Source: Escherichia coli
GTDB lineage: Bacteria; Pseudomonadota; Gammaproteobacteria; Enterobacterales; Enterobacteriaceae
Assembly: GCF_030013595.1 (NCBI RefSeq)
Contig: NZ_CP122769.1
Strand: one strand, 5' to 3'
DNA: 64,000 nucleotides
Shown here in pieces: positions 24,001 through 27,000 of the stretch. The position numbers were made by a program. How positions within the stretch are numbered: position 1 is the stretch's first letter; every line of letters starts with the position of its first letter.

Positions 24001-27000
24001 GCTTGCCTTCTCAGACTCTCGGAGTGGTCGGTTCACAGTAACGCATCTGGTGCAGAAGGCTATGATTGATCCAAAAAGCGATACTGTTGAGTTGGTTGGG
24101 GATCCTTCTATGTGGGAACTGTATCGTTACGACCATAAGACATTGTTAAGCCTTCAGGTTCTATACATTTTGGCTAAAAAAGAAGCTGCGCAATCTCTCT
24201 ATATTTATTTTGAAGCAATGCCAGCTGGTACGTTGTTCGTTAATATGAAACGGTTGAGGGAAAGGTTGCTTCTTACAACCCCTATTCGTACGCAAAACCA
24301 GATAATTCGTAAAGCAATGCGGGAACTTGAATCTATCGGATATCTCGATTATCAAGAAGTTAAGAAAGGTCGCGACATACAATTTCAGATCTTCAAAAGA
24401 AGCCCTAAGCTGGCCCTCGCCAAACAAGGTTGAAAGCTACCAGGTATGCACTGGTTATAACATGCTGAAAAATAAGTTATTTATCAGTGCTATGCTTAGT
24501 GCTTCTTTTACTACTGGTCTTACATCTCGGCTTAATGTGCAAAAAAGTAACTTTTCAAACGAACTCCTGACTATTCATCTGTATGCCTTTCTGGCTCAAG
24601 CGTACATGCTAGCCCATTCATTAAATGCCGTGGAGCAAGATGGTTTCGTGCGCACTCTATTCACGTGAATGCCTTTTGTGGATTACGCCTCTTACATTCA
24701 TACAAATGCTTTTGATGTCGGTATCCCAAAAAATCATTCATTGAAATGCTTTTGTTTGCCACTGTATCCCGAGCATAGCTATGCAGTGGTATAAAAAGGC
24801 ATTTTGGTGAATGGCATTAGGTCGAATGACACACAGTACAGCTTTGTTAAGAGCGAGAATGGTCCAAGACATCTATGACATTGGGCATCAGAAGGACTAT
24901 GTGTTTGATATGAGATCAAAAAAATATCAGAAGCATCACAACTCCAATGGCATTCAAAGAAATGCCTTTGTTTTGTTAGTACACCAAACAACCCAAAATT
25001 CATGCAGTTATATCAAAGACTCATTCGCAAAAGGACTCAGCCAGAAAGCATTTGCTTAAATAGCATTGGCCAAAAGCATTCGAATGAATGATGTTCATAT
25101 GGACAAGACAAAGTCCCACTCACGCCCAGAGGTGTAAAAGGCATTTAGATGAATGACGCACCGGCCGAGGATTGTATGTAGTTTCTCCAACTGATAGTTG
25201 CCGAACCAGGGAGCACAGTGATATGCGGCCTTCTCAGAATCAAGAGATAGATATTAAGGGAACAAAAAAGATTAGATATGAAGCTTAGTTACCTGCCCGA
25301 TATCTAGTTAGAGCTTTTCAAACCATCAAAAGTGACTTTTATGCTTGAGGAGTCTCATCAGCTTCAGGATTGAGCTTAACGTAATCTTACCCCCTCCCCT
25401 CTTTCAAACTTTTACTAAGCGTTCACTGGTACTTTTCAAAGATTATGCTTTAGGCCCCTTTGCTTAAAAATTCACCAATCGCTAAACGTTAAAAAAAGGG
25501 GGTTTATGCGAACGGAAGGATCGGAATAAAAAAGTATTATTCATTCGCGTTTACGTGAACTCAAATCTACACGGAGTAATTATGGAACTTTCTTTAAATA
25601 TTGGCCTTAGTGAAAAGAAATCTAACACGGCTGCACTTTTTAAAACAAAAAGCGCAAAAGTGATTTTGTTTGTTCTGCTGACCGTGCTTTTTTGCGGTCT
25701 GGCATATGCGGGTTCAGATGATGGGGCACTGGGAGATATTTGGTCATACATGAGTGAAAGTATGACTGGAGCTCCGGGCAAAATTCTGGCAGCCGCGATG
25801 TTGATCTCAAGCGTATATTTCTCTGTCCTTAAGCCTAACCCGGGCCTGGCACTGGTTTCATTATTCATGATGCTGGTAATGGCCAACGGCGAGAAAATTA
25901 TCAGCACCTTTATGGATGCTGGCGTACCGCTGTAATTTATTGTTAATCATGCATGAGGGGGTTCATCCCCCTCTCTGGATTTTTAATGAGTAAGCAGAAC
26001 GACGTTCCTCAGCATACCTATAGATTCCCTTTCAGGATCAACATGCCTCTACTGATTTTGTTTTGGGATGCAAAAAAAATAGGGCTTGCATTCATTCTGG
26101 TTGCATTTGGGAATATCTTCGAATGCTTCGGGTTTTCTGTTGTAGTAGCGGTTGTATATTGGATTGCGTATAACAAAGCAGCTGAGTCAGGAATAAGAGG
26201 ATTGCTAAAACACAGACTCTGGTGGCTCGGTTTTTTGCCAGGTAAAGCAGTTTTTAGTAGCCGTTATTTCAACGATCCATTTATCAGAGATTTGTATTCT
26301 TGATGGAGCTATGAATGAAAATGCTAAGTGGCATTAACATCCCTTTTTTCAAAAAATCTAAAAAGGATGAAAACGGTGATCTTGAACAGTCATACGTAAA
26401 GAAAGATGAAAGTGCTAAGGGACGTTTTTTGGACATTAAAAAACGATTTAGCCCACAAGCTGAAGCGTCAGGTGCTGGAATTACATACAGCGCCCTGATT
26501 AATCGTGATACAAAACTTATCCGCATTAATACTGTTTCAATAGCCGTCATTGGGTTATTGGTTGCAAAGATTCTTTTTTTCACTGACCCAGTGACGATTG
26601 TTACCCCTCCAAACATGAATGAAGAGATCACGGTTGTTGGTAACAAAGCATCGGAATCTTATAAAACACAATGGGCTCTCTTTTTTAGTACCCTTTTAGG
26701 GAATATTAATCCAACTAATATTTCCTTTGTGACGGCCTATGTCCTCGATGCCCTTTCACCTGAACTACAGGCTAAAACGAGTGAGTCTTTACAGGAGCAG
26801 ATAAATATCATGCAGGCTCGTGGTGTTGAGCAGACCTTTAAGCCTAATGATATTTACTTTGATCCAAAAAATGACATGGTCTATGTCTGGGGTACCAAAA
26901 CGACTCGACTTGTAAATGTTCCGGACAAAACTGAATCATCGAAATGGACTTATGAATGGGTTCTCGGGATGAAAAATGGTCGCCCAAGAATTGCATATGT

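What the first reader, a model, noticed from the sequence alone, without database searches (positions are those of the whole stretch)
25582..25991. Hairpin attenuator directly after the pilin gene
A GC-rich stem (GAGGGGG/CCCCCTC) with a T-run follows the trhA stop and immediately precedes the TraL-like start, an arrangement that would raise pilin transcript abundance relative to the downstream assembly genes.
Basis: seen in the sequence. Interest (0 to 1): 0.2.

Follow-up and report, generated by a model that had tools for sequence, protein, structure and literature searches.

The report
Conserved RNA hairpin after H-pilin gene
A strong, evolutionarily conserved RNA hairpin sits between the pilin gene (trhA) and the next transfer gene (trhL) of this IncHI2 resistance plasmid. 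It is probably only a leaky terminator or transcript-end stabiliser, an ordinary kind of operon tuning device, and the same sequence is also a recurrent landing site for the insertion element IS186.

Summary
The window is an IncHI2 plasmid. trhA (the cyclic H-pilin) ends at 25935. A perfect 7-bp hairpin (GAGGGGG-TTCAT-CCCCCTC, 25955-25973) follows, then TCTGGA, TTTTT, A, and the trhL ATG at 25986.

Only four hairpins this strong occur in the 64 kb, against 0.43 expected by chance. A hairpin occupies the same pilin-to-traL gap in every TrhA-type lineage examined, with compensatory stem changes or entirely unrelated stems, so it is under selection.

The "attenuator" reading is only partly supported:
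- The T-run is not flush with the stem. It is the spacer between the trhL ribosome-binding site and its start codon.
- The T-run is missing in sister lineages that keep the hairpin.
- The site scores below a terminator threshold, whereas Klebsiella, Shewanella and Aeromonas relatives carry textbook terminators at this position.
- R27 has the same stem and nearly the same tail.

Best reading: a leaky terminator and/or a barrier to 3'-end RNA decay that marks the end of the pilin cistron, with a small effect. This is a new member of a known kind.

Side finding: the hairpin core matches the IS186 target consensus, and 61 IncHI2 plasmid records carry IS186 inserted in it.

The parts
25582..25935 (+). 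trhA, precursor of the cyclic H-pilin (117 aa: leader, mature Gly1-Asp69, C-terminal AGVPL that is removed)
   Evidence: ORF and annotation. 66% identity to IncHI1 TrhA. Weak NCBIfam TraA_gammapb hit. The mature part is 69 aa from G to D, matching the published cyclisation residues.
25955..25973 (+). Intercistronic GC-rich hairpin: arms GAGGGGG (25955-25961) and CCCCCTC (25967-25973), loop TTCAT
   Evidence: -14.8 kcal/mol with 2-3 flanking nt on each side. The stem is conserved, with compensatory changes, across TrhA-type operons.
25974..25979 (+). Spacer TCTGGA, containing the trhL Shine-Dalgarno core (GGA; GGAG in IncHI1). It interrupts what would be the U-tract.
   Evidence: Sequence. The homologous IncHI1 tail is TCTGGAGTTTTTATG.
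25980..25984 (+). T5 run. It is the SD-to-start-codon spacer of trhL and not a U-tract flush with the stem.
   Evidence: It is not conserved in Photorhabdus L014, L028 or L037, which keep the hairpin.
25986..26303 (+). trhL (TraL family), the first downstream pilus-assembly gene. No promoter-like site was found between trhA and trhL.
   Evidence: Pfam TraL, E = 1.1e-07. Annotation. The promoter scan finds no + strand site between 25000 and 26300.
25958..25971 (.). IS186/IS421 target core GGGG-GTTCATC-CCCC inside the hairpin. It is intact in this window.
   Evidence: The IS186 target consensus is GGGG(N6/N7)CCCC. 61 IncHI2 plasmid records contain the hairpin/IS186-end junction. Insertions with 10- or 11-bp target duplications and both orientations were seen.

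Best explanation
The element is a selected intercistronic RNA hairpin that marks the 3' boundary of the pilin cistron in the trhA-to-trhC (AC) transfer operon. It is the counterpart of the canonical intrinsic terminators found at the same place in related MOBH/MPF-F transfer operons. In the IncHI1/IncHI2 clade, however, the U-tract has been replaced by the trhL ribosome-binding site. In this plasmid most RNA polymerases must therefore read through, because the essential downstream assembly genes have no promoter of their own. At most the hairpin acts as a leaky terminator. More probably it acts as a barrier to 3'-to-5' exonucleases that protects the trhA segment once the polycistronic RNA is cut downstream. 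Either way it would tilt expression modestly (less than about 2-fold) toward pilin.

Shown: the structure, its statistical significance, its conservation and covariation, the displaced T-run, and the canonical terminators in relatives.

Inferred: that the hairpin acts at the RNA level, the direction of its effect, and the size of that effect.
For: - The hairpin is real and rare by chance.
- Each of the 11 pilin-to-traL intergenic regions tested (the four further metagenome variants were not shuffle-tested) folds better than its shuffles, p <= 0.02 each. They come from IncHI2, IncHI1, Photorhabdus, Klebsiella/Raoultella, Vibrio, Shewanella and Aeromonas. Further metagenome variants add to this.
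- Stem pairs 6, 7 and 8 show double compensatory changes (G-C/C-G, G-C/A-U, A-U/G-C/C-G) with no disrupted inner pair, while loops vary in sequence and in length from 3 to 7 nt.
- All 14 stem bases are identical between R27 and IncHI2, although third-codon identity is only about 0.5.
- Klebsiella, Shewanella, Aeromonas and L055 have T5-T8 flush with the stem, which shows the site is used for 3'-end formation in the wider family.
- Hairpins are retained without any T-run in L014, L028, L037 and V. gigantis. The stem, not the T-run, is the selected part.
- No + strand promoter-like site lies between trhA and trhL.
- Type IV pilin cassettes provide a precedent: terminators after the pilin gene attenuate downstream genes, and C substitutions at U2/U3 increase read-through.
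Against: - R27 arrays show equal steady-state signal for trhA, trhL and trhE in two strains. This argues against both termination and differential stability being large.
- The terminator score is below threshold.
- No transcript 3'-end data exist for any IncH plasmid in the literature I could reach.
- Exonuclease-barrier function is inferred by analogy only.
Confidence: 0.45

Rival explanations
1. A genuine partial intrinsic terminator. A substantial fraction (at least half) of transcripts end just after the hairpin, giving a clear excess of pilin mRNA over trhL-trhC mRNA.
For: - GC-rich stem followed by a moderately U-rich tail (UCUGGAUUUUU), listed by the terminator scan.
- Canonical terminators at the same position in relatives.
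- The stoichiometric logic that pilin is needed in large excess, and the type IV pilin precedent.
Against: - Only 4 of the first 8 nt after the stem are U, and positions 4-5 are G. The score is about -15 against +22 to +46 for canonical relatives.
- Sister lineages keep the hairpin but have no T-run.
- R27 arrays give a trhA/trhL ratio of 1.08 and 0.99.
Confidence: 0.2
2. A translation-level element. The stable hairpin ends 3 nt before the trhL Shine-Dalgarno sequence. It would set how well ribosomes load on trhL, by steric hindrance, by uncoupling from trhA translation, or by masking the ribosome-binding site (RBS) through an extended helix. This would produce a low TrhL:TrhA ratio from equal mRNA.
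For: - Equal trhA and trhL RNA in R27 leaves room for control at translation.
- In the U-tract-less clade the hairpin lies 1-7 nt from the SD.
- The IncHI2 minimum-free-energy fold pairs the trhL start codon, with P(unpaired) of 0.02.
Against: - RBS masking is no stronger than with shuffled 5' flanks in any of 6 lineages; the fraction of shuffles at or below the native value is 0.11-0.75.
- The pairing register differs between IncHI1 and IncHI2.
- In other lineages the hairpin is 17-45 nt from the start codon.
Confidence: 0.15
3. A DNA-level inverted repeat (for example a regulator binding site), or an incidental palindrome without present function, perhaps noticeable mainly as an IS186 target.
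For: - The repeat is a perfect 7-bp inverted repeat in DNA.
- It is used as a DNA target by IS186.
Against: - Stem sequences are unrelated between lineages while the structure is kept.
- Compensatory changes occur, loop length is variable, and the position is strictly after the stop codon. This pattern is typical of RNA structure and not of a protein operator.
- Neutral decay would not keep 14 of 14 stem bases at about 50% neutral identity.
Confidence: 0.08

Closest known systems
Rho-independent terminators after type IV pilin genes (the P. aeruginosa pilA-tfpY/tfpZ cassettes, and others in Dichelobacter, Eikenella and Xanthomonas)
   Same: A stem-loop lies directly after the major pilin gene and before co-transcribed accessory or assembly genes. 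It is proposed, and partly shown, to set the pilin-to-accessory stoichiometry by leaky termination (PMC11841053).
   Different: Those elements have a proper U-stretch, and weakening U2/U3 raises read-through. Here the U-tract is already interrupted (UCUGGAUUUUU). The pilus is also of a different type: a conjugative MPF-F H-pilus with a cyclic pilin.
Canonical intrinsic terminators between the TrhA-type pilin gene and traL in related MOBH/MPF-F plasmids (Klebsiella IncHI1B/FIB(Mar)-type, Shewanella pNi1-3, Aeromonas pAeme3, metagenome L055)
   Same: Same genes on both sides, same position after the pilin stop codon, and a GC-rich stem. The Klebsiella stem is alignable to this one (GAGGGGAC/GTCCCCTT).
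   Different: Those have T5-T8 flush with the stem and 17-45 nt before traL, and they score +22 to +46. The IncHI2 element has a 6-nt non-U interruption, lies 12 nt from the ATG, and scores about -15.
Segmental mRNA stabilisation by intercistronic or 3' hairpins (E. coli papBA, the malEFG REP element, the Rhodobacter puf operon; stable traA 'core' mRNA of plasmid R1-19). Recalled from my own knowledge; the R1-19 title is seen only as a citation.
   Same: A stable stem-loop 3' of the abundant structural-subunit cistron within a polycistronic operon. A U-tract is not required for the function.
   Different: No half-life or processing data exist for IncH plasmids. In F itself the traA-traL gap is only 14 nt and has no hairpin, so the F/R1 mechanism is not built in the same way.
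IS186 insertion hot spots (for example the E. coli B lon promoter), target GGGG(N6/N7)CCCC
   Same: The hairpin core GGGG-N7-CCCC fits the consensus. It is repeatedly hit in natural IncHI2 plasmids, with 10-11 bp target duplications.
   Different: This is a property of the DNA sequence and not the reason the hairpin is conserved. IncHI1, Photorhabdus and other lineages conserve it irrespective of IS186.

Membership tests
Canonical Rho-independent (intrinsic) terminator | GC-rich stem-loop (about 5-14 bp, loop 3-8 nt) on the sense strand downstream of a stop codon | tested here: met
   A 7-bp perfect stem with 6 G-C pairs and a 5-nt loop, starting 19 nt after the trhA stop.
Canonical Rho-independent (intrinsic) terminator | U-tract of about 7-9 nt immediately following the stem, with U-rich proximal positions | tested here: not met
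   The tail is TCTGGATTTTT. Only 4 of the first 8 nt are T, and the T5 run starts at +7. The d-type score is about -15, against +22 to +46 for canonical relatives (the formula was recalled from memory).
Canonical Rho-independent (intrinsic) terminator | Transcript 3' ends 7-9 nt after the stem and a fall in downstream RNA | tested here: inconclusive
   No 3'-end data were available. Gene-level arrays for the R27 homologue show no fall: trhA/trhL/trhE 1536/1424/1337 and 13095/13214/11181.
Intra-operon attenuator after a major pilin gene | Located between the pilin gene and co-transcribed assembly genes that lack their own promoter | tested here: met
   The order is trhA, hairpin, trhL-trhE-trhK.... 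No + strand promoter-like site was found between 25000 and 26300. The AC operon is described as one unit for R27.
Intra-operon attenuator after a major pilin gene | Pilin mRNA in measurable excess over downstream genes | tested here: inconclusive
   The only data are the R27 arrays, where the ratio is about 1. No IncHI2 expression tables were found.
Intercistronic mRNA-stabilising hairpin (3' exonuclease barrier) | Stable stem-loop 3' of the protected cistron, with pairing maintained in evolution independently of a U-tract | tested here: met
   Hairpin free energies are -12 to -18 kcal/mol in the ten alignable variants and -18 to -23 kcal/mol in the two longer Vibrio stems. Compensatory changes occur at 3 stem positions. 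The hairpin is kept in 4 lineages without a T-run.
Intercistronic mRNA-stabilising hairpin (3' exonuclease barrier) | Longer half-life of the upstream segment, dependent on the stem | not testable with these tools
   This needs rifampicin-chase Northern blots or RNA-seq with stem mutants.
TrhA H-pilin (cyclic conjugative pilin of IncH plasmids) | Leader peptide, mature 69-aa Gly1...Asp69 segment, a short C-terminal peptide that is removed, and homology to R27 TrhA | tested here: met
   The mature segment from G to D is 69 aa, followed by AGVPL. Identity to IncHI1 TrhA is 66%. The IncHI2 group is reported at 65.8-70.1%.
IS186 target site | GGGG(N6/N7)CCCC, with actual insertions flanked by 10-11 bp duplications | tested here: met
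   25958-25971 reads GGGG GTTCATC CCCC. Insertions are present in 61 plasmid records, with target duplications GGGTTCATCC(C).

The most novel reading that the evidence does not exclude
In the IncHI1/IncHI2 clade the terminator has been converted into a dedicated post-transcriptional switch. The U-tract-less hairpin abuts the trhL Shine-Dalgarno sequence. An RNase E-type cut in the GGA/UUUUU stretch between the SD and the AUG (it fits the RN|WUU preference, which I recall from memory) would do two things at once. It would leave a hairpin-capped, stable pilin mRNA, and it would destroy the trhL ribosome-binding site. This would set the TrhA:assembly-protein ratio without transcription termination, possibly in a temperature- or host-dependent way relevant to thermosensitive IncH transfer.
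Probability: 0.08. Interest if true: 0.45.

Novelty: new member of a known kind. Interest (0 to 1): 0.22.

Why it matters
IncHI2 plasmids are major carriers of mcr-1 and other resistance genes, and pilin supply limits pilus production. If the hairpin tunes pilin output, it is a small but conserved control point of H-pilus biogenesis.

Comparing canonical-terminator lineages with U-tract-less lineages offers a natural series for asking how much termination a transfer operon tolerates after its pilin gene.

Practically, the hairpin's G4-N7-C4 core makes the trhA-trhL junction a recurrent IS186 insertion site. About 5% of the sequenced IncHI2 plasmids that carry this junction have such an insertion. 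That may affect their transferability and should be considered when predicting conjugation from gene content alone.

None of this is surprising to a specialist. It is an ordinary operon-tuning element.

Tried and rejected
1. RBS masking and translational coupling. The IncHI2 minimum-free-energy fold pairs the trhL AUG with sequence next to the trhA stop. However, shuffling the 5' flank gives equally masked ribosome-binding sites in all 6 lineages tested, and the pairing register differs between IncHI1 and IncHI2. Rejected as a selected feature.
2. Upstream in-frame ATG at 25953 as the true trhL start, which would put the hairpin inside the coding sequence. There is no SD. The Pfam TraL match starts at residue 12 of the 25986 start. 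Photorhabdus has an in-frame stop between the hairpin and its start codon. Rejected.
3. Terminator for the minus strand. The reverse-complement tail ATGCATGATTAACA has no T-run. Rejected.
4. Known RNA family. The Rfam E-value scan of 24400-26400 returned only sub-threshold chance hits.
5. F-plasmid analogy. The F traA-traL gap is 14 nt with no hairpin or terminator-like site, so IncH does not copy the F arrangement.
6. MAFFT alignments of the hairpins (A2, A4) were not structure-consistent. Pairs were tabulated with a structure-anchored script instead.
7. The wider protein alignment A3 gave no searchable pattern, so A1 was used.
8. Searches for IncHI2 RNA-seq gene tables in two papers' supplements found nothing.
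9. Frost 1984, Alonso 2005 and Rooker 1999 are not held in the library.
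Full report
**What the window is.** The 1.1 kb around the finding is 99-100% identical to more than 1,100 IncHI2 plasmid records. 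In an annotated example the gene order is RepB-family initiator, a 117-aa 'hypothetical protein', TraL, TraE, TraK, HtdO, TrhB and so on. In window coordinates, trhA is 25582-25935, trhL is 25986-26303 and trhE is 26315-27103.

The 117-aa product is 66% identical to IncHI1 TrhA. After an AYA|G leader cleavage site it has exactly 69 residues from Gly to Asp, followed by AGVPL. This matches the published cyclic H-pilin, which is cyclised between Gly1 and Asp69, and the IncHI2 group is reported at 65.8-70.1% similarity to R27 TrhA. The downstream ORF matches Pfam TraL.

**The observation.** The sequence runs as follows:
- TAA stop at 25933-25935
- 19 nt of AT-rich spacer
- GAGGGGG at 25955-25961
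- TTCAT loop
- CCCCCTC at 25967-25973
- TCTGGA, then TTTTT at 25980-25984, then A
- ATG at 25986

The consensus scan lists it as terminator-like, with 7 pairs of which 6 are G-C. The 76-nt region folds at -25.6 kcal/mol, z = -3.57, and none of 200 shuffles folds as well. In the full 64 kb there are only four distinct perfect stems of at least 7 bp with at least 6 G-C pairs and a 3-8 nt loop, against 0.43 expected from dinucleotide shuffles. Two of the other three (52854, 62246) are followed directly by T5-T6 and look like ordinary terminators. The hairpin is real and not a chance feature.

The important qualification is that the T-run is not adjacent to the stem. Six bases, TCTGGA, intervene, and they contain the trhL Shine-Dalgarno core. 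The T-run is the SD-to-ATG spacer.

**Comparative evidence.** I collected the pilin-to-traL gap from these sources:
- IncHI1, including R27 itself
- a Photorhabdus genome
- Klebsiella and Raoultella MOBH plasmids
- Vibrio, Shewanella and Aeromonas plasmids
- 34 metagenome loci

Every lineage has a GC-rich hairpin in this gap. Each of the 11 gaps tested folds better than its own shuffles, with p <= 0.02.

Among the alignable stems (IncHI2, IncHI1, L030, Photorhabdus, L028, L037, Klebsiella), pairs 6, 7 and 8 show double compensatory substitutions (G-C/C-G, G-C/A-U, A-U/G-C/C-G). No inner pair is broken. Loops differ freely in sequence and in length, from 3 to 7 nt. In Vibrio, Shewanella, Aeromonas, V. 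gigantis and L055 the stems are unrelated in sequence but are still present.

R27 and this plasmid share all 14 stem bases, although their third-codon positions are only 46-54% identical. An IncHI2 variant from a metagenome differs only in the loop (L022). This is the signature of selection on an RNA structure.

**What is not conserved is the T-run.** The tails fall into three groups:
- Klebsiella/Raoultella, Shewanella, Aeromonas and L055 have T5-T8 flush with the stem. These are textbook intrinsic terminators, 17-45 nt before traL.
- The Vibrio plasmids are intermediate.
- IncHI1 and IncHI2 have the interrupted tail. Photorhabdus (TTAAACAGAGG...GTG), L028 (AGGGAGGGAAAATG), L037 (CTCAAGGAAAG...GTG) and V. 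gigantis have no T-run at all.

A d'Aubenton-Carafa-type score gives about -15 for IncHI1, IncHI2 and Photorhabdus. It gives +22 to +46 for Klebsiella, and +38 and +41 for the two control terminators in this window. I recalled the formula from memory and used ViennaRNA energies, so this score is only a ranking.

The selected feature in the clade containing this plasmid is therefore the stem itself. By sequence criteria the site is at best a weak terminator. This agrees with experimental work on type IV pilin terminators, where replacing U2/U3 of the U-stretch with C increases read-through.

**Expression evidence.** I found no IncHI2 data; two RNA-seq papers have no relevant supplementary tables. 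For R27, whose stem is identical and whose tail is TCTGGAGTTTTTATG, a NimbleGen array with seven probes per gene gives these signals:

| Condition | trhA | trhL | trhE | trhK |
|---|---|---|---|---|
| Wild type, 25 C | 1536 | 1424 | 1337 | 465 |
| htdA mutant, 25 C | 13095 | 13214 | 11181 | 5753 |

There is no step at the trhA/trhL junction. The drop comes later, between trhE and trhK, which have no intergenic space. Gene-level array intensities are not absolute, so a difference below 2-fold could be hidden, but a strong attenuator or strong differential stability is unlikely. The downstream genes have no promoter-like site of their own and belong to the single AC operon, so substantial read-through is required in any case.

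**Mechanism.** I conclude that this is a conserved intercistronic RNA hairpin defining the end of the pilin cistron. It is functionally related to the canonical terminators of more distant relatives, but it lost its U-tract when the gap was compacted to about 50 nt and the trhL ribosome-binding site came to abut the stem. The most likely residual roles are leaky termination and/or protection of the trhA segment against 3' exonucleases after downstream cleavage, with a modest quantitative effect (confidence 0.45).

The rivals are:
- a translational role at the trhL ribosome-binding site (0.15)
- a DNA-level or functionless palindrome (0.08)

I tested the ribosome-binding-site masking idea directly. 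The native 5' flank masks the site no better than shuffled flanks in six lineages, so the extended helix in the IncHI2 minimum-free-energy fold is not evidence of design.

**Comparison with what is known.** Terminators or hairpins after major pilin genes that set subunit-to-accessory ratios are well known for type IV pili. From my own knowledge they are also known for pap and other chaperone-usher operons, and a stable traA core mRNA was described for plasmid R1-19 (title seen). F itself has only a 14-nt traA-traL gap without a hairpin, so the IncH arrangement is not the F arrangement.

I found no description of the trhA-trhL hairpin in the accessible literature. Rooker 1999 and Alonso 2005 could not be read and may mention it. 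I rate the finding as a new member of a known kind, of low to moderate interest.

**Side finding.** The hairpin core GGGG-GTTCATC-CCCC matches the IS186 target consensus GGGG(N6/N7)CCCC. A 53-nt hairpin/IS186-end junction query finds 61 IncHI2 plasmid records, in two junction variants offset by 1 nt. The examples I examined were:
- a full IS421/IS186 copy with an 11-bp duplication (pHu106-2)
- a copy with the transposase gene in the forward (trhA-to-trhL) direction at the second junction variant (pCTXM199_025970), and one in the opposite direction (S. Panama B82)
- a 294-bp internally deleted remnant (pEGY49_MCR-1.1)

These come, and they represent at least three independent events. The insertions separate trhA from trhL and are a ready-made natural experiment on operon continuity. 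The window itself carries the intact hairpin.

Noticed in passing
window 25958-25971 (and loci L056, L057, L058, L059): The hairpin core GGGG-N7-CCCC is an IS186/IS421 insertion hot spot. 61 IncHI2 plasmid records carry the hairpin/IS186-end junction. The insertions show two offsets, both orientations, 10-11 bp target duplications, and one 294-bp deleted remnant. The effect on conjugation is unknown.
   Followed up: partly
window 24573-25155: The 1.15-kb non-coding gap between the RepB-family rep gene (23558-24433) and trhA holds about 10 copies, in both orientations, of an 18-20 nt repeat (CATTCAnnnAAATGCyTTTG). These are most likely RepHI2 iterons. They also caused the spurious miRNA-like Rfam hits at 24736-24814.
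   Followed up: partly
window 52854-52874 and 62246-62263: Two canonical-looking intrinsic terminators: GCCGGGAC...GTCCCGGC followed by T6, and AGGGGCC...GGCCCCT followed by T5. They are the only other hairpins of comparable strength with T-tails in the 64 kb.
   Followed up: no
window 25953-25985: An ATG 33 nt upstream of the trhL start is in frame with it and is conserved in IncHI1, giving MRGFIPLSGFL / MRGIFPLSGVF. It overlaps the hairpin, lacks an SD, and is not conserved in Photorhabdus. It is probably not used.
   Followed up: yes
window 27103 (trhE stop / trhK start), R27 homologue in L021: R27 array signal falls 2-3 fold between trhE and trhK, although these genes overlap or abut with no intergenic hairpin. 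This points to internal processing, polarity or probe effects. It also shows the limits of the array data.
   Followed up: no
L004 2226-2245, L005 2108-2127, L008 (Klebsiella/Raoultella plasmids): These lineages have a second, small AT-rich hairpin (TTTTGC-TAAAC-GGGCAAAA) directly after the pilin stop and upstream of the canonical terminator. IncHI1 has a weaker analogue (TTGTTAGAACAA). IncHI2 has none.
   Followed up: no
L031 (metagenome contig OGMJ01005568.1): This IncHI1-like copy has the tail TCTGGGGGTTTTAGGAC in place of TCTGGAGTTTTTATGAC, so the trhL ATG is lost. It is either a sequencing error or a decaying transfer operon.
   Followed up: no
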